From Blasia pusilla (Eukaryota), in assembly GCA_050084515.1 (NCBI GenBank), contig CM114271.1, positions 27,714,001-27,778,000 on the forward strand: DNA of 64,000 nucleotides, given 5' to 3'. The position numbers were made by a program, and so were the translations under genes. Shown in pieces: positions 1 to 36,330 of the stretch (positions are counted from its first letter, which is position 1; each line of letters begins with the position of its first letter). The notes under the pieces were generated by a model, which was not told the DNA's origin, searched no databases, and was given only the letters and a program-made list of their open reading frames with translations.

Positions 1-74
1 TGATTAGTGAGGAGATACGCCTAGTCGGAAATAATAGCTCGCATAGTATGCAAGAGAATGCACTATTTGCAAGT

Positions 75-446
75 TGTCATGACCATACGGATTATGTCGT
101 AGAGTATAGTGTGCTAGTAGAGGCCATACCTTTTGTAGGGCCGTAGTGTCTAGGTAGAGATGCGGTTTCATACATAGGGTTGGGGGTTACTTAGTTGAGG
201 ATGACTTTTCCAATAGGGCCTACTCTTAGGTTGGAGGATATAGTGTGGAGTGCATTCAAAGAACAGTTAGTTCTTTGAGTTGAGCTTGTTGCGTTGGGAG
301 TTAGCCTTGGTAGTGAATAGAGCTCTTGGCTATGGTGGTTCCCGCAAGCTTCAACTTGGATTCTTCCATCATGGAGTGGGTTTGGATCGATTGTATGTGA
401 TTCTATACGTGTTTTATGACAGTAGGTCTTTCACGGATTTCACTCA
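75..446 (+). repeat. Element 1 repeat A1 (372 bp)
   Basis: Aligns without gaps to 7942-8313, about 20 mismatches by hand count. Confidence 0.95.
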
Positions 447-1705: not shown

Positions 1706-3290
1706 TTGGCGTTGGTCATCACGGAGCTGTCTGGTGGTCTGGTTGGGGACCGTGGTGCGGACAGTGGTGGTTTTACACAGAATGGATTGAGGTATCGGCT
1801 ACCTTTTCCACTTCCGACGGTTGATGAAGAGGAGGACGAGGGTATTTCAAACACCGAGTCTTCTACGTTTTTATCGAGTGTTACAGCTCCATTGATTTGG
1901 GACATGGATGGGATATATGGGGCCATGAAGGGCCCACGACGATACTCGGGTGCAGTGAGCACCATTGGGTCAGAGGACTTCATTCATGAGTTTGATACGT
2001 GGTGTGATATGCAAATGTTGCGGAACGCCACGTTGTTTACACCCTTCTTGGCTTGGAAGGGGTTATTTTAGCACTTGGAGGGACCACCCATGGATGATTA
2101 CCATGAGTTTAGGAAGGACCATGTTGCTGAGATTGAGGCGTGGAGACAATATTGGTCTCCAGGCTATGTGTCTATCACCCATGGTGGTATTGGTAGTAGT
2201 GCTCCTACTATGCCAGCCAGCCCGACGTTGAGTGGTACGAGTACAAGCCGGAGTGGGGGTACCAATGGAGGTACCCATGGAGGTACCAGTGAGGATACTA
2301 GTGGAGGTACTAGTGCCCCACCATCGTTCAGCCCGGTTGCAGAGTTCTTCAAGAGGTTGAAGAAGAACTATCAAGGAGTGAAGACAGAGAAGTTGAGGAG
2401 TTTCAGGAATTTGAGCGAAAGACTGGTGAGAGTCTTCGTGAGGCATACACTCGTATGCGACGCTTGATTTCAGTTACCCAAGGTGTGACTGAGGCTCAAG
2501 CAGTCTAGTTTTGGTATGGGATCTTGGACAGAGAGTTGCGCCGCAGGGTACGTAATGCTACTCTTATGAGTGATGATTCACCCACATTGACCCACGTGTT
2601 TGCTCTATCTGAGAAGAATGAGCTTAACATGGTGGAGGAGAGAGTGGTGACATCCGCATTCAATAAGGATACAACAACAACTTCTCGTGTTCAGTCAGTC
2701 CACCTCACAGTCTCGTAGTAATGGTGGTGGTAGTAGTAGTGGGAGTCGTGGGGGATACACACAACCTGAGTCAAGTCCTAGAGGGACACTTGCGCAGAGA
2801 CCATTGCCTTCATTTGCTGCCGCACAGCAAGGACAGTTAGGTTGGACATGTGGAGGTGATCATGTTAGGAGGTTTTGTCCCCAAGAGGATGGGAGACGGA
2901 CTTTGGAGGATGGGCCTCAGTCAGCCCCTACTCAGTATGATTATTGCGGGAGACCAGGTCATCCTCGAGAGCGTTGCTTTGATCTTCATCCAGAGTTGAG
3001 ATTAGGCCGCGGCCGTGGTGGAGTAGCTCCGAGAGGCCGAGGTGGTAGAGGTGGTAGAGGTGGACCAGTGGTTGGAGAGCCTATGGTGGCTACCCCTACC
3101 ACTACGAGAGAGTCAGCTATGGTTGCCAGGATTGAGCAGTTGGAGCAGAAGTTGCCTACTATGGCTGATATCCAACATAGAGCAGGTTTGGGAGTAGGGG
3201 TTTCCACCTCTTATGGAGGGGATGATCTCTCTTATATGGCAAGTGCAGCATACTTTGAGGCATCAGTTGCAGTTACGAGAGGAGCCACTC
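1706..3290 (+). pseudogene. gag: Element 1 gag (stops and frameshifts)
   Basis: RRYSGAVSTIGSEDFIHEFDTWCD block is shared with elements 2 and 3. Two zinc-knuckle remnants (TCGGDHVRRFC, YCGRPGHPRERC) and an RGG-rich tract follow. Confidence 0.85.
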
Positions 3291-3339
3291 GAGCGTCCAG
3301 TTGGGTTATCCCCTTTGGATACTACACCCATTGTATGGC

Positions 3340-4300
3340 AGTATCCGCCGGAGGGCATTTGTGTGTTTGATCTCTTTGGTGGGATTAGCATTGGTTTGGC
3401 TGCAGTGTTGCAGGCCGGTCTTCTTGTGCGGAGATATGTGTATGTGGAGCGAGATGAGACGGCCTAGAGAGTCTCATCTCGACATATCGGTCAGTTGATG
3501 CGGAGATATCCTGAGTTGTGGCCGCCATCAGCTATTCGTGGGTACCAACGTGCTTTGCCGTCACACATTGCATTGTTGGGGACGTAGGAACTTGAGAGGG
3601 TTGGTCTTGTGGATTTGGTGATTGCTGGATGGCTATGTCAGGGTCATATACGTGCTAGTCGTGGTGAGGGATTACACGACCCTAGGTCTCGATTGTTTTG
3701 GGATATGTTACAGGTGTTACGACATCTTCAAGTTCATCAGACACGTGCTCCAGCTTATATTCTGGAGAATGTTCCATTGTTGGGTGACACTCGGGCCCGG
3801 ATGATGGCGAGTGTTCATGAGGTGAGGTCTTGGATTGGACCATCGGTGTTGTTGGATGCAGCGCGAGTTGGCTCACGTGCACATCGTCCACGCTTGTGGT
3901 GGACAAACTTGTTGCCTAGGGAGGTTCTACGTCGAGCATATGATGCAGTGCAGCGGGATCCTTGCCTTATAGTGGATAGTATCTTGGATACTGGGCGACT
4001 TTCTCAAATGGCGAGGGTTATTGATTGGTCACCCATGGCAGTGGTGAACCGTGTGGGCCAGCCTAGGATGGCACTACCCACATTTGTGAGTTTTCCCTTG
4101 TCACATGCCTACAGGGAAGGTGGTTCCGGGCTTATATGGGATTCTCATGTGTGATAGTTGGTGGAGCCTTATGCTGATGAGAGAGAGCGTGCGATGGGAT
4201 TTGCTACTAGTGTGACAGCGGTTGCTTCCATTTCTGAGGCTTCACGATGTCATGTGTTGGGTCAGGCCATAGACCTGAATTGTTTGACATGGATTTTGTC
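3340..4300 (+). pseudogene. C5 cytosine DNA methyltransferase domain (DNMT3-like) inside pol of element 1
   Basis: One reading frame, interrupted only by stops. Motif I DLFGGISIG, II VERDE, IV DLVIAGWLCQG (PC mutated to LC), VI YILENV, VIII AHRPRLWWTNL, IX ERERAMGF, X VLGQAID. Confidence 0.92.
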
Positions 4301-4693
4301 TCGGATTTTGAGTCTTGGGATGGCCGAGCAATGTCAACTTTGGACTATGTCTATGGGTCTTCTACCCCTTGTGATGAGCTTGATGGCTACCGGGACGATA
4401 GAGACATCGGCTGGGGGCGAGGAGAGTAGTATTTTGCATCCTTGGAGTAAATGGGATGTAATGGCTGGGCATGTGGAGTTGGTTGCTCATGCTGGTGGAG
4501 GAGTTATTTGCTCACATGATGGTGTAGCTGAGGGTGTACCATCTTGTGAGGGGGTTGCCTAGCAGCCAATGGTGTTGTCCTCCCCCTCTAGTGTGCCAGT
4601 GGAGGAGACTTGGGATCCATTACTTGGGCCCAAGCTTAGGGGAGGTGAGAAACGACGTTTGACACAATTCCTACGTGCTTATAGGAGTTTAGC

Positions 4694-6030
4694 ATGAAGG
4701 AGTTGGGTGGTTTGGTTGGACCCGGTATACGGATTGGTTTGGCTAGTGATTCGCCAATCTTCCGTCTTCCCTACCGATATAGTGATATGGAGAGGGACTT
4801 GATTCAGAGTAGGACGTTGGACCTTTTGGAGGCTGGATTACTGGAGTTGTCGCATGGAGAGTATGCATCAGCCAATGTATTGCGTGCTAAAAAAGATGTG
4901 CATGGCAACTACACGGATAGGCGGATGTGTGGAGATTATCGTCATATCAATCGGCAGACCAAGGCTGATAGGTATGCCATGCCTACACTTGAGGAGATCT
5001 TTGATGTGATGGGACACGCAAAGATTTTCAGTACTTTAGATCTTCGGGCAAGATACCATCAGTTGCCAATTCGAGAGAGTGAAAAGGCCAAGACAACATT
5101 TTGGGGTGTCAACTCTCATGGCAAGGATTGTTTGTACCAGTGGAAATTCTTACCCTTTGGGTTGAAGAATGCACCTGCCGAGTTTCAGAGAGTGATGGGA
5201 CGGGATCCTAGGGGTTGGATTTTGTTCGGTGTTACATTGATGATATCTTGGTGTTCAGTAACACGGTGGAGGAGCATCAGATACATTTGCAGATTGTGTT
5301 TAAGCGGTTGAAAGCTCATGGTCTACGTTTGCATCCAGGAAAGTGTAAGTTCTTCCATGAGGATGTTGAGTACTTGGGTCATGTGATCTATCTAGGTGGT
5401 TTGGGAGTTCAACAAGCAAAGGTGGAGGCTATTACACTTATTCCTTGTCCGATAGATGTGAGTAGAGTTCTGGCATTCATGGGATTGGCGAACTACTATC
5501 GGAGGTATGTGAAGGAATTTAGTGCTATGGCAAAGCCTTTGAACCAATTGCTGAAATCATATCAGGAGTGGCACTGCGGAGATGATCAGGAGAGAGCTTT
5601 TATAGAGCTCAAGGCCCAGTTGGTGACGGCGCCTATCTTGAGGAGACCTATCTGAGGGCGCCCGTTTCAGTTACACACTAATTGGAGTAGGTTGGGACTT
5701 AGAGCGGTGTTGACACAACATGATGATGAGCATATGGAGTTTGTGGTGGCGTATGCAAGTCGTTCGAATAATGCAGCGGAGTCGCACTATAGTTCATATG
5801 AGGGAGAGTACTTGGTAGTAGTGTTGGCTGTGGCACACTTTAGGTGTTACTTGCTTGGCACACAATTTACCCTTGTTACTGATCACCAGCCGCTCAAGTG
5901 GTTGATGGAGTCTGACAAGCTTACAGGGAAGCTTGCACGGTGGGCTCTTATCTTATAGGAGTATGACTTCCAGATGGTACATAGACCTGGAGTTGCCAAC
6001 CTTGATGCTGATGGGTTGAGTAGGAACCCA
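4694..6030 (+). pseudogene. pol: Element 1 reverse transcriptase and RNase H
   Basis: RRMCGDYRHIN, FSTLDL, LPFGLKNAPAEFQR, CYIDDILVFS, KCKF, YASRS, TDHQPLKWL, KLARWAL. Gypsy-type order RT-RH-IN. Confidence 0.97.
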
Positions 6031-6345
6031 TGTACTAGCCAAGAGGATGCAACTAGGGCTAGATGGCATGACGAGGTTGATGAGGAGATGATGCCAGGTT
6101 AGCATGCATCCGCCTTTTTATGTTGGTTAGGGGTGGACTCTAGTATGGAGGACCACATGACATCTTACTCTACTTAGAGGGTAGATGGCTAGCCTTTAGA
6201 TCTTAAGGTTGGAGATGGTGGTACGGATCAGCGTGATATTCATGATGATGCGTTGGTGTTGGAGTTCCTACGGACCAGTAGGGTGCTAGACATAGTGAGT
6301 GCCAAGGAGCGAGACCGTGTTCTTCTACGTGCTAAGAGGTATTGA

Positions 6346-7667
6346 TTGGAGGGAACACATATTCTCCGTGTGTGGGAGGATGGTAGAGTACGAGTAGTGC
6401 CGCATTTGGCTCAGAGAGAGCGCATTGTGCGACATGCCCATGAGGAGTTGGGACATTTTGGGGTAAAGCGTACGTATAGCCTACTCCTTGGTCAGTATTG
6501 GTGGCGTGGCATGCATACTCAAGTGCAACAGTTGGTGTCACGTTGTATGGTTTGTGACTAGGTGAGGGCATCATTCAATGCCCCTACACCACAGTTACAC
6601 CCCTTGCCTATTATGGGGTTGGGTTACCGTTGGAGTGTGGACTTTGCGGGAGCGTTACCATTGACTGTACGACATCATCGATACGTCTTGATGATGGTGG
6701 AGCACTTCTCCAAGTGGATTGAGTTGGTGGCATTACCTGACAAGGCAAGTATGGGAACGGGGGATGCGTTTCTTGATAGAGTGCTTAGTCATTTTGGTGC
6801 ACCAGCTGAAGTGCTGACCGACTAGGGTACAGAGTTTCAGGGTGAGTTTCAGGTCTTGTGTGACAAGGCGTTGATTGATCATCAGACTACGTCTCGAGAT
6901 CATCCAAAGGCGGATGGTTTGGCTGAGCATGTGGTTCAGACGGTGAAGAGGGCATTGCGCAAGTATGGCCTACAGAAGGGGCATCTTGGAGACTGGGATA
7001 TTCAGTTGCCATGGGGTATAGATTCAGTCGCCAAGCGTCCTTGGCTTCCTTCTCACCTTATTTTTTGTTATACGGCCGAGATCCAGACTTGCCAGCAACA
7101 ATTCTTCGGGAGTCTAGTGAGGTGGTGAACCTTGATGACCTAGAGATGTGGATGAGAGTGTGTTCTCAACGGGTAGAGCTCTTTCGGAGAGTTATGCCAA
7201 CAGCCTTTGAGAATCTTGCCATTGCTCAACACAGGGATACGTTGCGGTATGCAACCATTTGGGGTGGAGGTTATGGACCATCAATTTGTAGGTTCCATGT
7301 GGGGGACTATGTCTATTTGCAGCAGATTGCACCGACAACGTTGGATGTGACGGGAGGCCGCACTATTTTACGAGTACGCGAGGTGTTAGCTTCTGGAGCT
7401 CTAATGTTGGAGGGTCGTGATGGAGTTGTTTGGAAGGACCATGTGCGTAATTGTGCGCCATGTCATCTTCCAAATGTGGATGGAATTGTTGACCCAAGCT
7501 TAGCCATGATACGTGCTAGCTTGAGGTGCATGTTGTGTGGGTCAACTGGTAACGCAGCCCGTATGTTGGTGTGTGATCGGTGTTCTAGGGGTTGGCACAT
7601 GATGTGTTTGACTCCACGTATGGATGTTGTTCCTACTGGAAGGTGGTTTTGTCCTCGATGTACTTAG
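6346..7667 (+). pseudogene. Element 1 DDE integrase with C-terminal PHD finger
   Basis: HEELGH...CMVCD zinc finger; SVDFAG, TD*G and GLAE catalytic core; SPYFLLYG; terminal C4HC3 motif CMLC...CDRC...WHMMC...WFCPRC then stop. Confidence 0.95.
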
Positions 7668-7820
7668 TAGATGCTTGATCTTTGCATGATATGGATTACA
7701 AATGTGCGACTAACGATGGGGCAACCTAGCACTCGGCCTTCTGATTCGTGCACCCACAAATGTGTATAGCATGTAGTAGATGTATAGGGCTACCTGGGAG
7801 TTAGAGGGACCTAAGCGCCA

Positions 7821-7832
7821 CTTAGGGGAGCG
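7821..7832 (+). promoter_or_regulatory. Putative polypurine tract directly before repeat B1
   Basis: CTTAGGGGAGCG abuts B1. Element 3 has CTAGGGGGGCG at the equivalent position. Confidence 0.7.
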
Positions 7833-8419
7833 AGTTGTGGTACACTTGTGTTTGTGGATACTCTCGTGTATGTTATGTATGTATGTGAGTATGGTATGTC
7901 AGCGATGTATGTTGTATGACGATGTGGATTCGCACGACAGTTGTCATGACCATACGGATTATGTGGTAGAGTATAGTGTGCTAGTAGAGGCCATACCTTA
8001 TGTAGGCCCGTAGTGTCTAGGTAGAGATGCACTTTCATACATAGGGTTGGGGGTTACTCAGTTGAGGGTGACTTTTCCAGTAGGGCTCGCTCTTAGGTTG
8101 GAGGATATAATGTGGAGTGCACTCAAAGAACAGTTAGTTCTTTGAGTTGAGCCTGTTGCGTTGGGAGTTAGCCTTGGTAGTGAGTAGAGCTCTTGGCTAT
8201 GGTGGTTCCCGCAAGCTTCAACCTGGATTCTCCCATCGTGGAGTGGGTTTGGCTCGATTGTATGTGATTCTATACGTGTTTTATGATAGTAGGTCTTTCA
8301 CGGATTTCACTCAGTTGTGGTACACTTGTGTTTGTGGATGCTCTCGTCTATGTTATTTATGTATGTGAGTATGATATGTCAGCGATGTATGTTGTATGAC
8401 GATGTGGATTCGCACGACA
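7833..8419 (+). repeat. Element 1 3' repeat block: B1 (7833-7939), gt, A2 (7942-8313), B2 (8313-8419)
   Basis: B1 and B2 are both 107 bp and nearly identical. A2 matches A1. Junction reads CACGACA-GT-TGTCATG. Confidence 0.95.
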
Positions 8420-8423
8420 AAGT

Positions 8424-17389: not shown

Positions 17390-20300
17390 ATATAACACTG
17401 TACTCCCCACAAACATATTGTACGACTCAACTGGTGTCGTAATCGCACGTGTGCGCATCATAGCACTATCCGTCGCATGCTCTGGCTGGACTTTGCGACT
17501 ATCTCTTGTCGAGTCATATACTGCGTGGGTGACATGCCCCCAATCGAGGTCTGTATCTAGAAGGGGCAAGACTCAATGTCGGCTTTCCGTAAGCCCAACG
17601 CTAAACACACCGCCTTCCCTAACATCAAGGGTTGCGCTCCCGAATCAAGTAGGACGCGCTGCGGGTGGTATACTGTCTTTGTCAAACTAACCAAGCGAAA
17701 TACTCCAGCTTGGTTATCCAGTAACACTACTCCAGGTGTCACCACTGCTCACTCGATGGTCGGTTAAGTTGGCATATCTACCAACTTCACCGCCGTTGCA
17801 TGCCATGACTTTGTGGGGGACGTTCCGAGCACTGGCTCTGAGGGCAAGTCCACCACCTCCTCAACTACCTCTGAACAAGAAGTAGTCACCTCTCCACGCT
17901 CACACAACGTGGCGGCCAGCCGGAACACCTCAACTGGTCCAACTCACAACGTCGCCAACTCTATGGTGGAAAATAACAGAGTCTAGCTCACTCTAGTGGC
18001 CACCCCAACACTATGGTCGACATTGACTCCACTAGAGCCGACATAGGAGTTATCACTCCAACTCCTATGACGTGACGTCGACGTACCTACCTGACTTGTA
18101 GGCACCGCTGGTCGTCGAGGCACCATCGATGGTGTGTGTAGTGCCTCCGACAATGTGAATGATTGTGGAACCCTGGCCTACGGCCCATCGATCCCCTCCG
18201 GTGGGTCAATCTCAACTCCACCTCTTGGATGGCTCATTGCCTCTCGCATCACCCCGAGTCACCACTGTAGCAGCCTCAACCTGAGTTGCACTACACACAA
18301 ACCCCATACTAGCGAGATCCTCACCAGGGTTAGGGTAAGAGGTAGAAGCTAGAGCTACACTAGCAGCTCGTGGCTCCGTGCCTTCCTTGAGCTGCATCAT
18401 CGTCATGGTAGCAATCCTCTGCTCCAACTGATCGGTGCGTGAGAGAAGTGTCGGCTCTGGTGCTCCTGCTCCATCTCCTCTAGCTAGTGGTGGTCCTCTA
18501 CCACCACGTCCACGAAGAACTCCCTGACCTCCTCCAAGACGACCGTCCCCAGGCCCTTGGCCTACCTCTAGACGTGCCTCTTGACGAAGGTCAAAACATC
18601 TATCCCTAGTATGACCATATCTATGGCAATAGACACAGTGGTAATGTGGTGGGGCCAGCCTATATGGCTCCTAAGCAATCGGAGGCGCTCGTGGTCCTCT
18701 CCCATGCTGTGTGCACTCTCTCTGCCTATGGGCCCCTCCACACGTCCAACAAGACAACATCGGTCTCTGTTGGGCAACATATGTAGGTACGGGTCGTTGC
18801 CTCATAGGCTCACGGTACCCGGCCTGCTCTCTAGGCACACAGGCATGCTCCCGTGGTACTGATGCTCGCTATGGCACCTGTGGGATCATCGTCGCTCGTG
18901 GACCCGTCAACTCTTGAGAAAATCCAGAGGTCACTACTTGCTCCTCACTCATGCTGAGCTTAATACGCTCAGACAACTCAAAGACCACCTTCAATGTGGG
19001 CTTCGCTGTGTGAATCAGCACCGCATCTCGGACTCTCCTGCGTAGTTCTCGGTCCAGAACCCCGTACTAATACAGGACTGACTACGCCTAAGTCATTCCA
19101 TACGTAGCAATGATCAACCTCCTCATGCGCGTGAATGCCTCTCTCAAACTCTCACCCGATCGTCGCTGAAAATCATGTAGACTCTTCTGCTTGTCGATGC
19201 GTACGCCCTGGTAGCTCTTCCCCAAGTGTCGGAAGAACTCCAATGTGGGACTGAAGCTGGGTGGCCCTCTACCAATAGAGGTCTCTGCCACATCGCTAGT
19301 CTCACTGCCCTCCTCTCCATCTAGTCTCCGGGATGATGGTCTGGGTCTCTCTCCTCTCACGATCCCATCATATGCCTTGCGACCACTAGTGGACACATAT
19401 CGTGGAGCCCAATACATCCTCCATGCATGGATCTCCACTAAATATAGTGATCAAAACTCCATGAAGTCATCCATCGGAGGATCCTCCAAGTGCTGGAACA
19501 ACCCCTTCCATGCCATGAAAGGGTTGAATCGTATCGGGGTCCGTATCTCTTGGAAGTCACACCACGTGTCGAACTCCTGGATAAAATCATCTAAGTTCAT
19601 GGTGCCCACTGCACCCAAGAAACGATGCATGCCCTGATGGCCCATGTCGTCCATCTCTTGCCAAGTGACATTGCATCCGTCTGTGATCTCGTCACCAGAC
19701 CCAGTGTCTACTGATGAGGATCCAGCCACGGATAGATGTTGAGGTAGGTCCTCACTCGTAACCCCTTGGTATCTCACTCCACTCCGTGTCACACCACTAC
19801 TACTGCTCGCACTACCCCGTTCTTCCGAACCCTGGAAGAACGCTGTGATGACAACCCTGTCTCACCCGCTCAAGCACTCAGACTCACCGAGAGTCTCCCA
19901 CACTCCTCACTAGCTTACCTATGCTAACATCAATCCCGTGATGACACACCCAACCTCACACACACTCAACACTCAGGCTCACCATGCGCCTCCCACTAAC
20001 TCACCTAATCTACCGACACGCTCGGGTCATACATACGACCCCTACTCGAAAACCGCCGTTTATCCACCAACATGCTACACATGATAAGAGTCTACACTCA
20101 TCACCATCACTGCACCCACCTAGCACCAACTACTACTCGATATCCAGCACTCTCAATCACAAAAGAGTGCGAGAAAAGGGACTCGAATGGGTAACCTGAT
20201 CACGCCTACCAACCTACCGCACAGTCAGCATCCACTTCTCCATGTGATATGACAACCTCCGCAACACGACACTCTCCTCGACCAACACGTCGAACCTCTC

Positions 20301-23122: not shown

Positions 23123-23817
23123 ATCTATATTATTATGGGAGAGTGTCTTTTGATTTGCAAACACATCTACCCTTAACATGTGGCAAGTGGACAGCAAAAA
23201 AATTTTCATATGCATAATTTAAAATTTTTTTTTATGCGCAATATCATTAATATCTTCCGTACGCCAGCTTTTGAATTTTTTAAAAAAATTCCCGATTCAT
23301 CTTGCTAGTTTTAATGGGAAGCCGTGGATTACAAACCAAACTAACTCCCGTTTCATTTTAAAATTGCATGGGAAAGACTTCCCGGGAACTAAGTACTGGT
23401 AAACCCTTTCGCAGAGTTACCGTTCCCGGCTGTAAAGACCCGGTAACGTACCGGGTGCCCGTAGCAGCGAACGTCTCAATCGAGAGAGACTAGCATGCTG
23501 CGCCCATCTCCATCGGAGGTGAGAGGAGAGGGTACCGAAATAACAGTCAATCCTAAGGACCGTTGAGAATTTAAACTTGTATTTCCCGCGCTTGGCTCCA
23601 CATCGACTATGATTACTGCTTGCAACAGTCCAGAAGTGACCATCGTGATATTACGTTGCCGATGGGTGCTTCGTTCAAACTGATCCTGTCTCCGCCGCCT
23701 TTGTCTTTAGAGCTATTAGACATCGAGTGAAATCTCCCAGCAAAAGATTGCTGCGCGAATTGTTACAAGGACTTTTATCCTCTGGCTCGATTCGGTACCA
23801 ATCGCTCATCGTTTATC

Positions 23818-27864: not shown

Positions 27865-28772
27865 AGTCGTGCGGATACACATCGTTACACAACATACATC
27901 GCTGTCATCGAACACATGCTCACTCATGGCATCCAAACAACGAGACAAGAAGTACCAAAATATCTCCAATAAATCAAGATCCAATCTCTCTCAACACTAT
28001 AGCTCTCAAATGTATGCACTCTCACATAATCCTCTGTATGTCAAACCAAACCCACTCTCCTAATGAGAGGCTTGGATTACACACACAAGGCAAACAAGAC
28101 CATAGCTCCGTCGCCTCATGCCAAGAGGTTCAACAAAGAGAGAATGACCTCTCAAGCTCTCTCTCCTTGAGGTATACCCCTCCCTTCTCCCAAGCTCCCT
28201 CCATGATAACCTATGCTCCCAAGTCACCTCCTTGGCTCTTGACCTGATGTAGAAGGTCAAGGGACTCTTACCAAAAATATAGAGTTAGCCATATACTCAA
28301 AATGGTACTTACCTAAAATAGTAAGTTTCTCAATATGGCTCCAAATGAGCCGAAACGAACGGAAACCTGCTCTCTCAGGTTTCCCAGGGCCTCTACAGGT
28401 CATTCTCAACCTCATAAGGCTATCCTCCACTACTCGCAAAGGCGCTCTACTAGATCTCACCGATCTATCCTAAAAGATGTGACAACTGTCGTGCACATAC
28501 ACATCGCTGTCACGGAATACACACACAAACACGCACGATCACATGCTCACTCATGGCATCCAAAAAATGAGATAAGAAGTACCAAAATATCTCCAATCGC
28601 CCCCCTAGTTGGTGGTTAGGTCCCTCTAACTCCAGATAGCCATCCATACCTACCATGACATACATCTCTCGGACGCTAAGAGCAAGAAGGCCGGGTGCTC
28701 ATGTGGCCCCATCATTAGTCGCCTTCTTGTCATTCTTGTCATAAACACAAGTCGGAATGTAGAAGTACCTAC

Positions 28773-30780
28773 TTTATGTACATCTGGGACACATCCATCA
28801 TCCCTGAGGAACCCTAGTAAGAGGTGGCGTCAAACATGCCACATGCCATCCTCTCGAACATGCATCATAGACTAGCATATTGGCTGCACCACGAGCAAAA
28901 CCACACAACATACATCGCAAGCGTGCACGAACCATTGCTAAGCTCGGATCAACTGTACCATCAATGTTCGAAAGATGACACGGCGCACAGTTATGCACAT
29001 GGTCCTTCCAAACCACACTATCATGTCCCTCCAATAAGAGAACACCAGATGGCAAAACCTCACGCACTCTCAAGATGGTGCGCCCTGTAGTCACATCCAA
29101 CGTTGTGAGTGGGGTTTGCTGCAAGTAGACATAGTCTCTTTGATGAAACCTCCGGGTAGTGGGTTGATAACCAGCCCCGAATAGTCGCATACCTCAATGT
29201 ATCCCGATGCTGCGCAATCGCGCCAAGTTCTCAAACGCCATGGGCATCACTCTCCAAAACAACTCAACCCTCTCTGAACATGCTCTCATCCATACATCAG
29301 GGTCATCAAGGTTCAACACCTCACCAAAATCTCAATGAACGGCCACACGTAAATCTGGCTCACGGCCATAAAGCAGCACGTACGGTGAGAAAGACGCTAA
29401 GAATGTCTACCTGCTGAATCTGTATCCCATCGCCAACCACGACAAATGAAGGTCCCAATAAATGCAAGAACATACCATTCCATGCTGTAAATGGGTTGAG
29501 CTCTCTAGAGTTCCTGACCCGCGGGGAGTCGCACCAACTCCTGAACTCTGATATGAAATCGTGCAACTCAATCGTGCTTACTGCACCTGAAAACCTACGC
29601 GGTCCTCTATCCCGGTCGTCCATCTCGTATGCCCAACTGGTAGGACCACTCACAATGTGTGGCGATGTCACACAAGGAGGTCGAGGTGGTCCCTCATATG
29701 GAGATCCTCGGAACCTCGCACCATTCCGCGTAAAACCTCTAGAGCTACTCTCGGGTTCACCACCTCGCCTCTCAAAGTCCCGAACGGATGCGGTGATGAC
29801 CCTCGTGCCCCTCTCACCCAATCACTCTCAACCTCACGAGTAATCCCTCAATCACTCATCCCAAACACGCGGCACTCGATCTACACTCTCCCTCCCCGAG
29901 ACGTGTAACGTGCGGCAACACGCGGCGTCGGGCAAATCGACCAAACTATCATCTCATCGACAACTTACCCTTATCTCCGAACATCCCACACAGGTCTATG
30001 TCCCCTAAACCCACACATCATCGATGCTCCTAGCATCAATAGAAAACCCAATATCCCAAATAACTACCCAATATTTAGGTTACCTCTTTGCAAGCCATAC
30101 TTGTGTAATCCTCTATTCACCGTCTGCACAACCCTCTCTGCTAGTCCATCCGCCTCAGGATGATCTCACGAAGTGATGCGGTTGACAATCAGTGCTTGAT
30201 CATACAAGGCCTGAAACTCCCCGCAAACTCTGTACCCTGGTCTGTCAACACCTCAGTTGGTGCCCCGTAATGACTCAACACTCGATCTAGGAAGGCATAC
30301 GCTACTCCCTCACTCGCTGTGTCAGGTAATGCAACCAACTCTATCCACTTCGAGAAGTGCTCGACCATCACCAACACATAACGACTATGGCGCTCTGTCA
30401 AAAGCAAAGGTCTTGCAAAATCCAAACTCCATCTATAACCTTAACCCATGATCGAAAGTGGATGCAACTGTGGAGTCGGAGCATTGAACGATGCTTGGAC
30501 TCGATCACACGACATGCATGTGGGAACAAAGTGCTGAATGTTAGTCTGCATACCTCGCCACCAATATTGAATCTGGAGCAAGGTGTAAGTCCGCTTCACT
30601 CCAAAATGACCCAACTCCTCATGAGCATGACGCACCAAACGTGCTCTTTGCGAAGGATGAGGCACTACACGCACTCTACCATCCTCCCACACTAGCAACA
30701 CATGTGTCCTCTCCCATTGAAACCATCTGGCTCGTTGTAGGATCCGATCCTGCTCTCTAGCACCCATTGTGCTCACGACG
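28773..30780 (-). pseudogene. Element 3 integrase with PHD finger, interrupted by an insertion
   Basis: HAHEELGHFGVKRTY, DFARPL, TDQGTEF, and LRCMLCG...DACSRGWHVACLTPPL...*WMCPRC. Confidence 0.92.
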
Positions 30781-30989
30781 CTGCCTGTACGCAGTTACTC
30801 CAAGACCACTCCATCGACGTGAATGTCTTGATCATGTGTCATCTCCTCACCGGCTTCTGGATCTAAGGACTCTCCATCACACCTCGCCATTAAAGTCTCA
30901 GCAATTTGGCTCTCCATAGCCAACAATCCAAATAGGCTGACGCATGCCATCCTGGCATCAACTCCTCATCACTCTTACCATGCCAACGA

Positions 30990-32340
30990 GCTCTAGTCGC
31001 ATCTCGTTGACTCGGGCATGGATTACGGCTCAAACCATCTGCATCCTGGTTGAGCATCCCATGTCTATGCACCACCTAGAAGTCATACACCTGCAACAAA
31101 AGAGCCTACCTCGCAAGCTTCCTTATAAGCTTGTCGGACTCCATCAACCACTTAAGTGGCTGATGATCAGTAATGATGGTAAAGGGATTTCCGAATAGAT
31201 AACATCTGAAATGTGCGACAACCCACACTGTAGCCAAGCACTCACCCTCATACGAGCTATACTTTGCCTTTGTAGGGTTGTTGGGTTGTAAGCCACCACA
31301 AACTCTCTACCATCATCGTCATGCTAGGTGAGCACGGCTCCAAGCCCCAACATGCTCTAATCGGTATGCAAATGGAAAGGACGCCCCCTGATTGATCTCC
31401 TCAATATGGGCATGGACGTCAATCTTTCCTTGAGCATCTAAAATGCTCTCTCCTGCTCATCCCGCCAATGCCACTCCTGATCCACCTTGGTTAGCAAGGT
31501 CATCGGCTTCGCAATTGAGCTGAAACTCTTGACGTACCGTCGATAGAAGTTCGCCAATCCTATGAATGCACAAACTCGACTCACATCTGTAGGGCATGAA
31601 ATCTTGAAATAGCCTCTACCTTTGTCTGCTGCACACCAAGGCCCCCGGGTATATTGTATGACCCAAGTACTCAATCTTGTTGTAAAAGAACTTGCATTTG
31701 CCTGGATGTTGCTTCAACCCATGTAACTGCAATCATCGAAACACCTCCTCGAGATGTCGCCCATGCTCCTCAACCGTGGCGCTAAAGACTACGATGTCAT
31801 CAATATAACATCTAGCAAAATCCAGACGTGCCAAGATCCTATCGGCGACCCTCTCAAACTCAGCCAAAGCGTTCTTTAACCCGACTGGAAAGAAACGCCA
31901 CTGGTACAAACAATCCTTCCCGTGAGGATCGATGTCCCAAAATACTGTCTTCTGCCTGTCCTCCAATCAAATAGGGAGCTGATGTTATTTGGCTCACAAA
32001 TCCAATGAACTGAAGACCTTTGCATGCCCAATTGCATCAAAGATCTCCTCAGGGATAGGCATGGCATATCAGACTTCGTCGATCGATTGATAGGTCGGTA
32101 ATCTCCATACATCCGCCTATCCGTCCAGTTGCCATGCACATCCTTCTTGGCAGGCATGACAGTGGCATATGCATACTCCCCATGCGTCATCTCCACTAGT
32201 CCTGCTCTGACCAAGTCTTGGCTCCTACTCTCAATCTGAGCCCTCTCCAAGTCAGTGTACCTATAGGGTCATGAGAAGATTGGCGTGTCGCTCGACAACT
32301 GAATGTGGATTCCTAGACCCTTCAACATACCCAAATCATG
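30990..32340 (-). pseudogene. pol: Element 3 reverse transcriptase and RNase H
   Basis: DRRMYGDYRPIN, PVGLKNALAEF, CYIDDIVVFS, FIGLANFYRRYV, ADGLSR. Confidence 0.95.
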
Positions 32341-32799
32341 CATGCTAAATGCAAAACAGTTCCTATAAGTCCTAAGGAATTGGTGTATTTGATGCTGCTC
32401 TCCTCCTGTCAACTTAGGGCCCATATCTGGCTCCCAAGTCTCCATCGTGACTATAGTAGGACTCTCCGACGCGGGTGTTGGTGGTTGCTATGGTGCAACC
32501 CCGTCTCGGACAACAAAACTCGACTACTCCCCTACAGCCAGCTTTAAAATCGGATCTCCATTTGTAGTACCCGCAACCACGCTCGATGCTGTGGCTACTA
32601 TCTCCTGGCGTACCTACAAAACATGCCAAGAAGTCCAAGGTTGTCTCTCCCAATCACCCTTGGTGTGTCGATCTCCTCCGGTCTCGCCCCCAGCCACTGC
32701 CTCAACCGTCTCGGTAGGCATGGGGCTCACCAACGCAACTATTGTGATCTGTCGCATCCTCAAACGATACTGCTCAGCTAGTCCTAAGATGAAAATCCT

Positions 32800-33540
32800 T
32801 GTCAAGTAGTTGAGGTCCATCGCCTTACCCAAGACATGACGTTGTGATGCCTCTGATAGTGACGGTGCTATCGTCACTCCTGTGGGGAATCCCATCGCTC
32901 GCTCTCGCTCATCGGCGTTGGGCTCCACCAACCTCTATACCTTGTCATCCCAAACCAAGCCACGTCCGGCCTCCTTGAATACATAGGAAGCGGGAAAACT
33001 CACCAATGTGGAAAAGGTTGCCCGTGGCATGCCAATCTTTTTTACCACAGTCAACTACGGTCGATCATCGTGCCTCATTGCCTGTAATCGACGACCCAAA
33101 TCCAATATAGAATCCACCAACAAATTGGAGGGGCGCTCCACTCTCGCATATGCCCTCCGCATCACCTCATGTGGTACCAAGTTGGTCCACCAAAGACGTA
33201 GGCAATGTGCTTGCCAATCCACACTCGCCGCATCCAACAAAACTGTCGGGCCGATCCATGCGCACACCTGATGTGCACTCGTTACCACACGAGACCTCGA
33301 GAAATACAAGATCGTTACATTCTCCATAATGTATGCTGGAGGACGAGACTGATGCTCCTGCAAGTGTCGTAAGATCCGCATAATCTCCCAAAAAACCTCG
33401 ACCAAGAGTCAGCTAATCCGCTATCTCGTCTAGCACTCGACTCACCCTCAATGGCCAACCTGCAATGACCAAGTCTATGGTCCCTACCCGCTCCAAGTCT
33501 TGCGCCCCCAACAATAAAATGTCCCTCGGTAGGGAACTCT
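32800..33540 (-). pseudogene. Element 3 DNMT domain (motifs I-II deleted)
   Basis: DLVIAGWP, YIMENV, AHCLRLWWTNL, EPNADERERAMGFP, VLGKAMD. Collinear with the element 1 domain. Confidence 0.9.
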
Positions 33541-33949
33541 AGTGATGTCCAAAGGGGTCATAGCAGCACTCCTGCCTACCTGGGGTTCCTCCGATCCGTC
33601 ACACTCTGGTGCAAACGTCTCGCTCCACGCGGTCTGCACATGCTCAATGGCTCAACGTCGAAGCTCCTCAGTCGAGCCCCAAAGAAGCACCTCTCCTCTA
33701 TAGATTGATATGGCTACCATGACACTCCTCTCCATAGAAATTCCAAGAACTGGAGTACCCTCTGCATGGACATGTTCCTCAATAAAATCATGAGGCCACG
33801 TGATGACACTACTAAATGCTGCTAAGGTCGCCATCTCTCCTGGCCGTCGCTCGATCACTGCACATGTGAATCGAACGGGTAATGAGCTAAGGCGCCCATC
33901 ACTTGAGTGGCATCATGGTCTGTAGGACACTGACTCCTCCCCCACTAAT

Positions 33950-36330
33950 CCAGGGAAAACCCATTCGGGTATAACACTGCTCCACCAACCAAGACGTCGT
34001 AGGACTCTGCATCAGTCACTATCGCCTTGGCTCGCACCACGGACTCATCTGTAAGATGTCCCGAGAGAATCCTCACCATGACCTCATGTCGGGTGATATA
34101 CTTGTGTAGTACTCGCTCCACCTAAGGATGTTTGTATCCGGAATGCACAACGCTCCACATCGGCTCACGTCAAGCCCAATCATCTGAAAGATGCTTTCCC
34201 CAACATCAGGGGTTGCACTCCTTAATCCAACAAGACGCGATGTGGACTAAAAGCTCTACCTCCGGGACCCACCAACTAGAAGACCTCTCCCTGATTATCT
34301 AGCAATACAACACAAGGAGAAGCCATGGCACACTCTATCGCGGGTCTAGCAGGCATCTCCGTTATCCTAGAAGCCACAGCCTGCCATGAATCTTCCGTGG
34401 ATGGCCCGAGCTTCTGCTCCAAGGGCAGATCCATCACCTCCTCTACGATCACCTCTGAACCTGATGGAGGGACTCCAACTCCATGCTCACATAGCGTAGT
34501 GGCCAGCCGGAACATCTCGGCGGGCGTACCTCCCAATGTCATAACATTGGAAGCAAAAAATAGCGGAGCACAAAACACCATTGTGGCCACCCCCAACATC
34601 GTACTCGACACATGCTCCTCTTGAGCATCAGCAATAGGAGTCATCGCACTTGTTTCTCCCATTTTCCTCCGTACCTGCACACCAATAACATCACCAACTC
34701 TCCGAGAACTCTGATCAGGACCCAGACAATGTGTAAGACTCAAGAAGCCTGGTCTCTTTCTTGGCTTCCCCTCGCTGTGGATCCAACTCTGCGGCTCCTC
34801 CATCTGGGCAACCCCGCACATCCAACCAGGATCCTCCATATCTGTGGCTGCTCCATATGATGTTGATGCCACAAATCTGGCCTTGGGTAACCTCAATACC
34901 ATAGCGGCAATCTGCTCATGTAGTTGTTGTATGTGAGCAGCCATCCCAGCCTCACACCTGACGTCTCCCTCAACGCATCTAGGTGGTGGGACTCTATCTC
35001 CTCCACGAGTAGCTCCACCACCCTGTCAGGCAACTCCAGCTCCTCGTCCCCCAACGGAACCAGTTGGTGCAAGATCTCTAGCCGACCCGGACCGGCTACT
35101 CGCCCTGGTGTCCTCTCTGGCCCTCAGTCCGGACGTAACTCAACATGTAAACTGAAACACCTGGCATGTCTGTGACCATACCTCTAACAATAGTCACACT
35201 AATAACCTCCTCGTGCAACACCATCTTCTCCTCCATGTTGAGGAACACGTCCATCACCTTGACGAGTGCAATCACGTTGGTGATGGGCTCCACCACATGA
35301 CCAACAAGTAATCGTAGGTGGCTGCTGCTGAGCGGCATATGAAGGCGTAGGTCTTTGCGTCCGGTATCCTCCCTGAGATTGTTGTGCCACAGTCGACCTA
35401 TCTTGGAGTCCACGTTGGTGGCTCAATGTTCTTGGCAGTCCTAAAAACATCTCTCAACGTAGGGGAGGTGTTCATAAGAAACATCCCCTCCCGTACCCGT
35501 GTCCACACATCTTCTACTATGACTGGATAGCCTGAGCCTCTGTCATCCCCTGAGTGACGTTGATCAACCGGCGCAAGCGAGTGTAAGCCTCATGAAAACT
35601 CTCACCCGAGCGCCTCTAGAAGTCGTGGATGCTCCGTAACTTCTTTGTCTGTACCCCCTGATAGCTCACCCTCAACTCAGCGAAGAACTCAACCATGGGG
35701 TTGAACTTGGAACAAACTCGACTAGATGGTGCAACTGCTCTAGTGCAAGTGACCCCTCCTAAAACACCACTAGTGGAAGAGGAAGTAGCTCTCTTGACTC
35801 CTCTTCCTCATCTGGGAATGGCTTCGTCCACGACACATAGTGTGGGTTATAGTAGAGTCGCCATGCCTCAATCTCTTGGGCATATCTGTGGGAGAACTCG
35901 TGGTAATTGTCCATGGGCGTTCCCTAATGATGGAATATACCGTTCCATGGTGTAAACGGGTTGAACTCTTTAGAGTTCCTAGCCCGCTGTGAGTCACACC
36001 AACTCCTGAACTCCGCAATGAAGTCGTGTAGCTCTATAGTGCCTATAGCACCTGAAAACCTATGCCGTCCTCTACCCTTGTCGTTCATCTCATACGCCCA
36101 ACTGGTAGAACCACTCGATGTGTACGGTGGATCACTAACACACTCCTCTACTTGCTCCCCCTCGTCTGAAGACGACACAGAAGGAGATCAAGGTGGTCTC
36201 TCACGTGGAGACCCTTGAAACCTTGCACCTCTCCGGGTAAACCCTCCAAAGCTACTCTCAGGTCCACTACCTCGCCTCTCAAAATCCCGAAAGGATGCCG
36301 TGATGGCCCTTGTGCCCCTCTCACACAATC
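33950..36330 (-). pseudogene. gag: Element 3 gag and aspartic protease
   Basis: RFSGAIGTIELHDFIAEFRSWCD, knuckle CWSCGGAHHQRDC, and protease VLLD*GVQPLMLGK at about 34200-34240. Confidence 0.85.

What the first reader, a model, noticed from the sequence alone, without database searches (positions are those of the whole stretch)
3340..4300. DNMT3-like cytosine methyltransferase embedded in pol between protease and RT
Seen: C5-MTase motifs I, II, IV, VI, VIII, IX and X in order, in both full elements. AHRPRLWWTNL and ERERAMGF resemble DNMT3 (AHRARYFWGNL, EMERVFGF). Restoring a 10-nt deletion at about 4688, read from element 3, puts the domain in frame with RT. Established, from memory: DNMT-carrying retrotransposons are reported in dinoflagellates and charophyte algae, so the capture itself has precedent; multiple families in a land plant would extend it. 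Inference: the enzyme may be packaged and pre-methylate the cDNA.
Basis: partly seen in the sequence, partly recalled or inferred. Interest (0 to 1): 0.85.

Follow-up and report, generated by a model that had tools for sequence, protein, structure and literature searches.

The report
Dead DNMT3-carrying retrotransposon copies, bryophyte family
The stretch is a broken copy of a cytosine DNA methyltransferase gene carried inside a jumping gene of mosses and liverworts, a kind so far described only in a green alga, and in working relatives the enzyme sits in the coat-protein reading frame, cut off from the copying enzymes by a conserved stop codon.

Summary
Window 3333-4300 (+) encodes a non-permuted C5 cytosine methyltransferase domain. 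Its nearest solved relatives by profile and by fold are DNMT3A/B/C.

It lies inside a Gypsy-type retrotransposon (72-8419). A second, about 50% identical family lies on the minus strand (27866-38537).

Both window copies are dead:
- Element 1 has four in-frame stops, GWLCQ in place of GWPCQ, a deleted protease and frame breaks in RT.
- Element 2 has a frameshift, stops and a lost catalytic Cys.

The family itself is real and was selected. All 17 hits that carry an organism name are from bryophytes. DNMT dN/dS is about 0.22, like RT, RNase H and integrase. Sense-strand RNA reads cover the element.

DNMT is not in the RT reading unit. A conserved in-frame TAG/TAA (49 of 57 junctions), followed by CAR-YYN, separates Gag-PR-DNMT from RT-RH-INT-PHD.

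I read this as a leaky stop, which would make DNMT as abundant as Gag. That the enzyme methylates the cDNA is inferred, not shown.

This is a new member of the kind known from Klebsormidium (KnitGypsy-Dnmt3).

The parts
72..446 (+). Element 1, terminal direct repeat A1
   Evidence: 94.7% identical to 7939-8313; 15 transitions and 5 transversions, K2P 0.056
1904..3295 (+). Element 1, gag with CCHC knuckles; frame changes inside
   Evidence: tblastn to residues 1-450 of the Marchantia protein P0105, in three pieces and two frames
3295..3306 (+). Deletion junction; about 413 residues including the protease are missing
   Evidence: The P0105 match jumps from residue 450 to residue 864. RNA reads from other copies have loose ends at 3295
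3333..4300 (+). DNMT3-like C5-MTase domain, a pseudogene: stops at 3465, 3585, 4152 and 4155; GWLCQ at 3621-3644
4301..4559 (+). Poorly conserved tail of the upstream reading unit
   Evidence: Same frame as DNMT. The tail is present in relatives
4560..4568 (+). Conserved in-frame stop with its context, TAG CAG CCA, between DNMT and RT
   Evidence: 49 of 57 junctions carry TAG or TAA at this codon, and RT follows in the same frame
4569..5655 (+). Reverse transcriptase; frame breaks near 4688 and 5200
   Evidence: PF00078 E 6.7e-11 and 6.5e-15; tblastn
5656..5958 (+). RNase H
   Evidence: PF17917 E 2.1e-30
6181..7014 (+). Integrase (rve core 6562-6825)
   Evidence: PF00665 E 1.6e-6; tblastn to P0125
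7527..7661 (+). PHD finger at the integrase C-terminus
   Evidence: PF00628 E 6.1e-11, residues 201-245 of ORF 6927-7667
7833..7939 (+). Short repeat B1
   Evidence: 96.3% identical to 8313-8419
7939..8313 (+). Terminal direct repeat A2
8313..8419 (+). Short repeat B2, giving the layout A1...B1-A2-B2
27866..38537 (-). Element 2, a second family. A1 38537-38026; gag 36088-35136; PR 34956-33607; DNMT 33535-32620; RT 32442-31291; RH 31279-30962; INT 30830-30010; PHD region 29457-28780; B1 28597-28536; A2 28484-27970; B2 27970-27866
32620..33535 (-). Element 2 DNMT domain, a pseudogene: about 50% aa identity to element 1, GWPLR in place of GWPCQ, one frame change and in-frame stops
32482..32490 (-). 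Element 2: the same conserved stop and context, TAG CAA CCA
17390..19654 (-). Element 3: fragment with gag and part of the protease only; no DNMT
   Evidence: tblastn to P0105 residues 1-687

Best explanation
Window 3333-4300 is the decayed DNMT3-type cytosine-5 methyltransferase domain of a dead copy of a Gypsy-type retrotransposon family of bryophytes. I take the family to be the land-plant branch of the lineage described in the alga Klebsormidium as KnitGypsy-Dnmt3.

Intact members show how it is built. One long reading frame runs Gag(CCHC)-protease-DNMT, then a single in-frame UAG or UAA followed by CAR-YYN, then RT-RNase H-integrase-PHD finger. The element is bounded by split direct repeats (A...B-A-B).

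Proposed mechanism:
1. Most ribosomes stop at the UAG and make Gag-PR-DNMT, so the methyltransferase is made in Gag-like amounts.
2. A minority read through and add RT-RH-INT-PHD.
3. The protease frees the parts inside the particle.
4. DNMT then methylates the newly made cDNA, or the DNA at the insertion site, de novo.
5. The PHD finger steers integration by reading histone tails.

The domain identities, the order of the parts, the conserved stop, the selection and the transcription are shown here. Read-through (my odds about 0.6), packaging of the enzyme, and cDNA as its substrate (about 0.3) are inferred. The two window copies themselves can make no enzyme.
For: Identity:
- The best relative is at E 6.6e-167. 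All 17 rows that carry an organism name are bryophytes (Marchantia 7, Calypogeia 5, Sphagnum 4, Riccia 1).
- A profile of 17 relatives hits 29 DNMT3A/B/C sequences in the PDB first (E 8e-26 to 9e-21). DRM, M.HhaI and DNMT2 come far behind, and no DNMT1 or CMT row reaches E<=0.01.
- The AF2 model of the intact relative P0002 has pLDDT 87.2. Every Foldseek row shown up to rank 50 is DNMT3A/B/C, with target-normalised TM 0.79-0.84 for catalytic-domain chains.

Architecture:
- Locus L049 has an open Gag-PR-DNMT frame of 1369 codons, then TAG, then an open RT-RH-INT-PHD frame of 1047 codons in the same frame.
- 49 of 57 junction-spanning copies have TAG (37) or TAA (12) at the same codon. The following codons are CAA CCC, CAG CCA, CAA CCA or CAG TTA. 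Both window elements have the stop.
- 21 type-A proteins end 64-483 residues after DNMT without any RT.
- Deeper-branching relatives have PR-DNMT-RT-RH-INT as one open protein (P0158, P0292, P0293). Co-translation is therefore likely the older state.
- The first Met of L049's downstream frame lies well inside the RT.
- UAG CAR YYA is the leaky-stop consensus of plant viruses (PMC3542737, passage read).

Selection:
- Window element 1 against its clade gives DNMT dN/dS 0.22 (50 pairs), RT 0.16, RH 0.19, INT 0.14 and the PHD end 0.25.
- The two intact sister copies L049 and L051 give 0.12.
- Near-identical pairs (dS<0.1) give a median of 0.76, as expected for decay after insertion.
- GWPCQ is kept in 36 of 52 copies of the clade and ENV in 44 of 52.

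Transcription:
- In 3 of 3 RNA runs of the organism that best holds this DNA, reads at 90% likeness or more cover all 30 bins, almost all in the orientation expected for sense RNA. Depth is continuous across 4560, and no joint is listed there.

Repeats:
- A1...B1-A2-B2 is found in both window elements. The Fig. 4 legend of PMC5890265 says the algal element has DIRS-like repeats with Gypsy domains.
Against: - No enzymatic activity is shown for any Gypsy-borne DNMT3. The K. nitens domain gave no methylation in yeast; the authors call this inconclusive because human DNMT3B also failed (PMC5890265, section 10).
- Most copies are dead. Only 6 of 76 DNMT domains lack in-frame stops.
- Few RNA reads match this copy at 99% or more (9, 13 and 17 reads per run), so the transcripts come from relatives.
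- The commonest context, CAA CCC, ends in C, not in the A of the CAR-YYA consensus.
- No conserved RNA structure follows the stop: consensus -4.47 kcal/mol, with an unfavourable covariation term.
- 8 of the 57 junctions have no stop. Five of these are 28-31% identical distant copies that are probably not comparable at that site, two look misaligned, and one has TAC.
- The dN/dS pairs all share the window copy and are not independent.
- I had no K. nitens sequence and no named host DNMT3, DRM, CMT or MET1 sequences. Neither the link to KnitGypsy-Dnmt3 nor the placement inside the DNMT3 clade was tested by a tree.
Confidence: 0.8

Rival explanations
1. The stop is a true terminator. RT-RH-INT is made some other way: splicing that removes the stop (as recalled for Ogre elements of legumes), re-initiation, or supply in trans by fused-frame relatives.
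For: The commonest context, CAA CCC, departs from CAR-YYA at the last base. No downstream structure is conserved. The Marchantia gene models P0106 and P0107 join DNMT to RT, apparently by skipping the stop region, though these are automatic models.
Against: The downstream frame continues in phase directly after the stop, and conserved residues start within about 15 codons. Its first Met is deep inside the RT. RNA depth is continuous and no joint is listed near 4560, but 12 joints were not shown. Fused-frame relatives show that the two halves were once one protein.
Confidence: 0.25
2. The domain is kept for something other than DNA methylation, such as RNA m5C methylation of the genomic RNA, or a non-catalytic DNA-binding or scaffold role.
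For: No activity was seen for the algal domain in yeast (PMC5890265, section 10). A distant clade in the same loci has GWECQ (14 of 19) and ENT (14 of 19) in place of GWPCQ and ENV, so the canonical catalytic loop is not kept everywhere.
Against: In the window's own clade the motifs for SAM binding and catalysis are the best kept columns and are under purifying selection. The fold matches the DNA enzymes DNMT3A/B in every row shown, while the tRNA enzyme DNMT2 scores about 20 orders of magnitude worse by profile.
Confidence: 0.12
3. Bryophyte elements captured a DNMT3 on their own, separately from the charophyte and chlorophyte elements.
For: DNMT sits in two different places. It is PR-DNMT-RT in the window's group, and RT-RH-DNMT-INT in a larger group that includes a Scenedesmus pol. 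The published view is recurrent capture (PMC5890265).
Against: In a DNMT-domain tree of 134 rows the two layouts split at one branch (SH-aLRT 99). The window copy nests among layout-A rows together with a Closterium protein, a charophyte. Both layouts share the integrase PHD finger, and RT and INT are 42-47% identical where DNMT is 38-41%. That fits one old capture and one move. The tree is unrooted and has no host DNMT3.
Confidence: 0.1
4. A host DNMT gene lies next to, or was interrupted by, an unrelated retrotransposon, or the arrangement is a mis-assembly.
For: None beyond the fact that databases annotate the relatives as ordinary genes.
Against: The same order, in one frame with gag and protease, recurs in dozens of independent contigs and in several named species. 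The domain lies inside the terminal repeats in two diverged elements of this window.
Confidence: 0.01

Closest known systems
KnitGypsy-Dnmt3 of Klebsormidium nitens (de Mendoza et al. 2018, PMC5890265; abstract, sections 9-11 and passages read)
   Same: Both have a non-rearranged Dnmt3-type domain inside the polyprotein of a Gypsy-type element. Both have DIRS-like repeats with Gypsy domains. Both have intronless multi-copy genes and purifying selection (published Ka/Ks<0.2; 0.22 here).
   Different: The host here is a land plant; all 17 relatives with an organism name are liverworts or mosses. The paper's text mentions neither Marchantia, nor Physcomitrella, nor a stop codon between DNMT and RT. 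Its Fig. 4c and supplements, which I could not see, may show the ORF layout. I held no K. nitens sequence, so the kinship is inferred.
Animal DNMT3A/3B/3C catalytic domain
   Same: These are the best profile and fold matches. The motif order is not permuted. The shared motifs around the catalytic Cys, ENV and the HR-R-WxN stretch align.
   Different: Identity is only 20-23%. There is no PWWP or ADD domain. The catalytic loop reads GWPCQ, where the aligned DNMT3A stretch reads GSPCN. The stretch between motifs VIII and IX is longer. The domain is part of a retroelement polyprotein.
Plant DRM2 / NtDRM
   Same: Second-best solved relatives (E 1e-16 to 1e-13); plant de novo methyltransferases.
   Different: DRM has a circularly permuted motif order (stated in PMC5890265 section 9). 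Here the order is the standard one.
RT-RH-DNMT-INT-PHD elements of green algae (for example the 'pol' of Scenedesmus sp. PABB004, P0127)
   Same: Related DNMT (38-41% identity), related RT and INT (42-47%), and the same C-terminal PHD finger.
   Different: DNMT sits between RNase H and integrase, in one open frame. In the DNMT tree these elements fall on the other side of a single well-supported branch.
Type I leaky stop of tobamoviruses, UAG CAR YYA (Firth and Brierley 2012, PMC3542737, passage read), and gag-UAG-pol of gammaretroviruses (recalled)
   Same: An in-frame UAG followed by CAR-YYA (window elements 1 and 2, L028, L049, L051) splits an abundant upstream product from a rarer polymerase-bearing fusion.
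   Different: The largest clade has CAA CCC. The stop lies after PR-DNMT rather than after gag. Read-through has not been measured.
SymbioDIRS-Dnmt3 and SymbioLINE-Dnmt of dinoflagellates (PMC5890265)
   Same: Retrotransposons that carry a C5-MTase. SymbioDIRS domains methylate CG de novo in yeast.
   Different: A different retroelement class (tyrosine-recombinase DIRS, or LINE), a different host kingdom, and an independent capture according to the authors.

Membership tests
C5 cytosine methyltransferase (Pfam PF00145) | Score above Pfam's gathering cut-off (22 bits) | tested here: inconclusive
   Window copy: 22.1 bits on piece 3588-4154, 20.7 bits on the whole read-through. Intact relatives pass: 42.7 (P0002), 51.1 (L049 ORF1), 35.6 (P0105).
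C5 cytosine methyltransferase (Pfam PF00145) | Conserved motifs in the standard order (SAM-binding FxGxG, PC, ENV, R-R, C-terminal motifs) | tested here: met
   the motif numbering is recalled
C5 cytosine methyltransferase (Pfam PF00145) | Catalytic Pro-Cys intact and reading frame open | tested here: not met
   Window copies: element 1 has GWLCQ and 4 stops; element 2 has GWPLR, a frame change and stops. Met in relatives: GWPCQ in 36 of 52 copies of the clade.
DNMT3 family | Closest to DNMT3 among characterised methyltransferases, by sequence profile and by fold | tested here: met
   29 DNMT3 rows at E 8e-26 to 9e-21, ahead of DRM, bacterial enzymes and DNMT2. Every Foldseek row shown up to rank 50 is DNMT3.
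DNMT3 family | Placement inside the DNMT3 clade in a tree with named DNMT1/MET1, CMT, DRM, DNMT2/5/6 and bacterial references | not tested
   No named reference sequences could be obtained. The best 150 of 4268 hits were all element-type proteins.
DNMT3 family | Companion reader domains (PWWP/ADD in animals, a DUF in land plants, per PMC12344493) | tested here: not met
   Pfam finds only protease upstream and RT downstream. A PHD finger exists, but at the far end of the second reading unit.
DNMT3 family | De novo methylation of DNA | not testable with these tools
   Published test of the algal relative: no activity, called inconclusive (PMC5890265, section 10).
Gypsy-DNMT3 retrotransposons (KnitGypsy-Dnmt3) | Dnmt3-type domain inside the polyprotein of an element with PR, RT, RNase H and a DDE integrase | tested here: met
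Gypsy-DNMT3 retrotransposons (KnitGypsy-Dnmt3) | DIRS-like arrangement of terminal repeats | tested here: met
   A1...B1-A2-B2 in element 1 (72-446, 7833-7939, 7939-8313, 8313-8419) and in element 2. The name 'split direct repeats' is recalled.
Gypsy-DNMT3 retrotransposons (KnitGypsy-Dnmt3) | [quoted passage not shown] | tested here: met
   Median 0.22 over 50 pairs; 0.12 for L049 against L051.
Gypsy-DNMT3 retrotransposons (KnitGypsy-Dnmt3) | Sequence kinship with the K. nitens copies | not tested
   No K. nitens sequence was returned under a name. The nearest named charophyte is Closterium.
Type I leaky stop (UAG CAR YYA) | UAG followed by CAR YYA, with the downstream frame in phase and conserved | tested here: inconclusive
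   Exact match in window elements 1 and 2 and in L028, L049 and L051. The large clade has CAA CCC. Frame and conservation are met.
Type I leaky stop (UAG CAR YYA) | Measured read-through | not testable with these tools
   Needs a reporter assay or peptides that span the stop.

The most novel reading that the evidence does not exclude
Land plants (liverworts and mosses) carry transcribed Gypsy-type elements whose DNMT3-type enzyme lies on the Gag-PR side of a programmed leaky UAG. The methyltransferase would then be a major structural-stoichiometry component of the particle, and would methylate the element's own cDNA before or during PHD-guided integration. That amounts to a transposon-encoded de novo methylation system working inside a genetically tractable land plant. 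The stop would be a derived device of the bryophyte branch that tunes the DNMT:RT ratio.
Probability: 0.25. Interest if true: 0.8.

Novelty: new member of a known kind. Interest (0 to 1): 0.5.

Why it matters
Cytosine methylation is the host's main weapon against transposons, so a transposon that carries its own de novo methyltransferase is a paradox. It has been described only in a dinoflagellate genus and in one charophyte alga, and for the Gypsy type no activity has been shown.

This finding places the same kind of element, with selection on the enzyme and with sense transcripts, in bryophytes. Close relatives are annotated as genes in Marchantia polymorpha, a laboratory model. That makes the self-methylation idea testable in a land plant.

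The conserved stop gives a concrete and cheap prediction: the enzyme is made in Gag-like amounts and RT is made by read-through.

It also warns annotators. The 'DNA (cytosine-5)-methyltransferase' genes in bryophyte proteomes include transposon reading frames, which would inflate counts of host DNMT3 genes.

Tried and rejected
- **Whole-genome search of the window's assembly:** no genome is held.
- **Conserved RNA structure after the stop:** RNAalifold on 8 diverged junctions gave -4.47 kcal/mol, an unfavourable covariation term and 1 compensatory pair. I rejected it as a read-through stimulator.
- **Taxon names for distant relatives:** two cluster look-ups of 10 proteins each gave one name only, Closterium sp. 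NIES-53.
- **ESM Atlas:** it only confirmed PF00145 clusters. The first was streptophyte and the next two were labelled viral, which is no evidence of kinship.
- **Reaching host DNMT3 through the 1.84-billion-protein search:** the best 150 of 4268 hits were all element-type, so no rooted tree could be made.
- **RNA holders in the run index:** no RNA holder was listed. The raw-read RNA runs were laid instead.
- **Strand asymmetry (G>C, T>A on the sense strand) as a hypermutation mark of the dead copies:** rejected as the sole cause. Copies with intact DNMT show it too: L004 0.22, L006 0.24, L049 0.11.
- **Literature:** nine searches found no paper that names DNMT-carrying retrotransposons in bryophytes, or a stop between DNMT and RT. 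Two papers speak of 'streptophytes' in general (PMC12344493; bioRxiv 10.64898/2026.05.21.726589; passages read).
- **Supplements:** they were closed. The supplements of PMC5890265 and PMC12344493 may list land-plant copies or show the ORF layout.
- **Mutation spectrum:** I did not polarise it, because that would need a family consensus, which I did not build.
Full report
**What is at the coordinates.**

Frame 3 of the + strand from 3198 to 4562 reads as one continuous protein if the stops are written as X. It holds the hallmark motifs of a C5 cytosine methyltransferase in the standard, non-permuted order (coordinates; the motif numbers are recalled):

| Motif string | Coordinates |
|---|---|
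| DLFGGISIG | 3369-3395 |
| YVYVERDE | 3435-3458 |
| IAGWLCQG | 3621-3644 |
| ILENVP | 3759-3776 |
| AHRPRLWWTNL | 3879-3911 |
| ERERAMGF | 4179-4202 |
| LGQAIDLN | 4257-4280 |

PF00145 is borderline on this decayed copy. It scores 22.1 bits on the piece 3588-4154 against a cut-off of 22, and 20.7 bits on the whole read-through. Intact relatives score clearly: 42.7 bits for P0002 and 51.1 bits for the L049 reading frame.

The copy is a pseudogene. It has in-frame stops at 3465, 3585, 4152 and 4155, and Leu in place of the Pro of the catalytic Pro-Cys.

**Is it DNMT3-like?**

- A profile of 17 relatives (alignment A1) was searched against all PDB sequences. It hit 29 DNMT3A/3B/3C sequences first (E 8.4e-26 to 8.6e-21). 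Six DRM rows followed (6.6e-16 to 6.4e-13), then M.HhaI (about 1e-8) and DNMT2 (about 2e-6).
- No DNMT1 or chromomethylase row reached E<=0.01.
- An AlphaFold2 model of the intact relative P0002 (76% identical to the window copy) had mean pLDDT 87.2 and pTM 0.87.
- In the Foldseek search of the PDB, every row shown up to rank 50 was DNMT3A, 3B or 3C. E was about 1e-18, and target-normalised TM was 0.79-0.84 for chains that hold only the catalytic domain.
- A tree with named host DNMT3, DRM, CMT, MET1 and bacterial enzymes could not be built. No such named sequences could be obtained, and the best 150 of 4268 hits in the exhaustive search were all element-type proteins.

**The element around it.**

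Element 1 runs from 72 to 8419.

- Its ends are not plain LTRs. A 375-bp repeat A (72-446 and 7939-8313, 94.7% identical, K2P 0.056) is combined with a 107-bp repeat B (7833-7939 and 8313-8419, 96.3%). The layout is A...B-A-B.
- Inside lie gag with CCHC knuckles (1904-3295), the DNMT domain, RT (4569-5655), RNase H (5656-5958), integrase (6181-7014) and a PHD finger (7527-7661).
- tblastn with the Marchantia protein P0105 shows that residues 451-863, which include the protease, are missing. The junction is at 3295-3306. So in this copy the domain is not 'between protease and RT'.

Element 2 lies on the minus strand (27866-38537) and belongs to a second family.

- Its DNMT is about 50% identical in protein to that of element 1.
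- It has the full order gag, PR, DNMT, RT, RH, INT, PHD and the same A...B-A-B ends.
- Its DNMT has a frame change, stops and GWPLR in place of GWPCQ.
- Motif I is not found there by tblastn.

A third fragment (19654-17390, minus strand) has only gag and part of the protease.

**Relatives.**

- The window domain found 103 proteins at E<=1e-3. All 17 that carry an organism name are from bryophytes: Marchantia polymorpha 7, Calypogeia fissa 5, Sphagnum species 4 and Riccia sorocarpa 1. The window therefore most likely comes from a liverwort-like bryophyte. I did not try to name it.
- A search among longer proteins gave 43 polyproteins.
- The exhaustive search gave 4268 hits at E<=1e-3 and 269 at E<=1e-30, so this is a large superfamily.
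- Two layouts exist. Layout A is PR-DNMT-RT-RH-INT-PHD. It holds the window, the bryophytes and a Closterium protein. Layout B is RT-RH-DNMT-INT-PHD and includes a 'pol' of the chlorophyte Scenedesmus.
- In a maximum-likelihood tree of 134 DNMT domains (37 A, 95 B, 2 unlabelled), the two layouts separate at a single branch with SH-aLRT 99. The window copy sits with the Marchantia and Calypogeia rows. I left out domains shorter than 270 residues and rows whose layout could not be told. The tree is unrooted.

In the bryophyte clades DNMT and RT are not one open frame.

- In four copies with intact DNMT, from two clades about 50% apart, the Gag-PR-DNMT frame ends at TAG or TAA. RT continues directly in the same frame.
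- Locus L049 is fully open on both sides: 1369 codons, then TAG, then 1047 codons. Pfam finds protease and DNMT upstream, and RT, RNase H, integrase and PHD downstream.
- Of 57 copies with an alignment across the junction, 49 have a stop at the same codon (TAG 37, TAA 12). Five of the 8 exceptions are 28-31% identical distant copies, two look misaligned, and one has TAC.
- The two codons after the stop are CAA CCC in the large clade, CAG CCA in window element 1 (4560-4568), CAA CCA in window element 2 (32490-32482, minus strand) and in L028, and CAG TTA in L049 and L051. UAG CAR YYA is the consensus for context-driven leaky stops in plant viruses (PMC3542737, passage read).
- 21 layout-A proteins end 64-483 residues after DNMT without RT. 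The deeper-branching layout-A proteins P0158, P0292 and P0293 carry PR-DNMT-RT-RH-INT in one open frame.
- No conserved RNA structure follows the stop.
But it lies downstream of this stop.

**Selection and decay.**

- Most copies are dead. Only 6 of 76 DNMT domains with 280 or more aligned codons have no in-frame stop, and the median is 3 stops in the window's clade.
- Yet the domain was under constraint while the family spread. Window element 1 against 50 copies of its clade gives a median dN/dS of 0.22 at dS about 0.8. RT gives 0.16 (39 pairs), RNase H 0.19 (33), integrase 0.14 (25) and the PHD end 0.25 (22).
- The intact pair L049 and L051 gives 0.12. Pairs with dS<0.1 give a median of 0.76, as expected for neutral decay after insertion.
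- These pairs share one sequence and are not independent.
- GWPCQ is kept in 36 of 52 copies of the clade, ENV in 44 of 52 and HRPR in 26 of 52.

**Transcription.**

Three RNA-seq runs of the organism whose DNA run best holds this stretch were laid on 1-8500 at 90% likeness or more.

- 3832, 3823 and 4111 reads lay on it. All 30 bins were covered, and nearly all first mates were on the minus strand. In the usual stranded libraries that means sense RNA.
- Only 9, 13 and 17 reads were 99% alike or more. The RNA therefore comes from related copies, not demonstrably from this one.
- Depth runs on across the stop (34-66 before it, 48-59 after it), and no joint is listed there. 12 joints were not shown.

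**Mechanism.**

Shown here:
- The domain identities, their order and the conserved stop in phase.
- Purifying selection on DNMT equal to that on the essential enzymes.
- Sense transcripts of the family.

Inferred:
- The stop is leaky, so Gag-PR-DNMT is the main product and the RT-bearing fusion is the minor one.
- DNMT is therefore packaged in Gag-like amounts.
- It methylates the cDNA or the insertion site.
- The PHD finger guides integration, much as chromodomains do in chromoviruses (recalled).

The cDNA-methylation idea is the one offered for such elements by de Mendoza et al. (PMC5890265, discussion read). In their yeast assay the K. nitens Gypsy domain gave no methylation, which they call inconclusive.

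**Comparison and novelty.**

The kind is known: KnitGypsy-Dnmt3 of Klebsormidium nitens, with DIRS-like repeats, Gypsy domains and Ka/Ks<0.2 (PMC5890265). Later papers refer to 'streptophytes (Gypsy-DNMT3)' without naming land plants in the text I could read (PMC12344493; bioRxiv 10.64898/2026.05.21.726589).

Nine literature searches found no description of bryophyte copies, or of the stop between DNMT and RT. Supplements were closed and may hold such data.

I therefore rate the finding a new member of a known kind. It adds a testable detail, the conserved stop with DNMT on the Gag side. It also gives a wider picture: two layouts split by one change in the DNMT tree.

The window copies themselves are ordinary dead transposon remnants.

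Noticed in passing
window 72-446, 7833-8419; 27866-28597, 38026-38537: Both elements end in an A...B-A-B arrangement of direct repeats instead of two plain LTRs. A and B both begin with AGTTGT. A purine-rich run lies just before B1 (7790-7832). No target-site duplication was worked out.
   Followed up: partly
window 447-7938 and 28597-36100; loci L004, L006, L049: The sense strand is rich in G and T and poor in C and A. GC skew is 0.27 and 0.21 in the window copies, 0.22-0.24 in L004 and L006, and 0.11 in the intact L049, where third codon positions are 35% T and 16% C. CpG o/e is 0.55-0.69 throughout. The cause is unknown.
   Followed up: partly
loci L060-L080 (19 distant copies): A distant clade carries GWECQ (14 of 19) and ENT (14 of 19) in place of GWPCQ and ENV. 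The catalytic-loop Pro is replaced by Glu in many copies. Either the chemistry is altered or the function is not catalytic.
   Followed up: no
window 6197-7195: In all three RNA runs, reads skip 997 nt inside the integrase region, with the same 8 extra letters at the joint (16, 29 and 43 reads). This points to a transcribed deletion derivative of the family.
   Followed up: no
window 8259 joined back to 104: A few RNA reads (3, 6 and 4) join the end of repeat A to an earlier part of repeat A. This may reflect tandem or circular forms, or may be a mapping effect of the repeat.
   Followed up: no
window 29450-29608 (-): A 53-residue gag fragment of the same superfamily sits inside the integrase and PHD region of element 2. 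It is a nested or rearranged piece.
   Followed up: no
window 23731-24582 (+): An open frame of 283 codons with a SAP domain (PF02037, E 1.1e-6), in a stretch with CpG o/e 0.95. It is possibly a host gene exon between the transposons.
   Followed up: partly
window 38539-38634 and 27563-27657: Sequence just outside the 5' end of element 2 is 92.7% identical to a stretch about 210 bp beyond its 3' end. Element 2 may have landed in another repeat.
   Followed up: no
proteins P0105-P0107, P0010, P0017, P0059 (database names): Public bryophyte proteomes annotate these transposon reading frames as ordinary genes, some named 'DNA (cytosine-5-)-methyltransferase'. Two Marchantia models appear to splice around the conserved stop.
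   Followed up: partly
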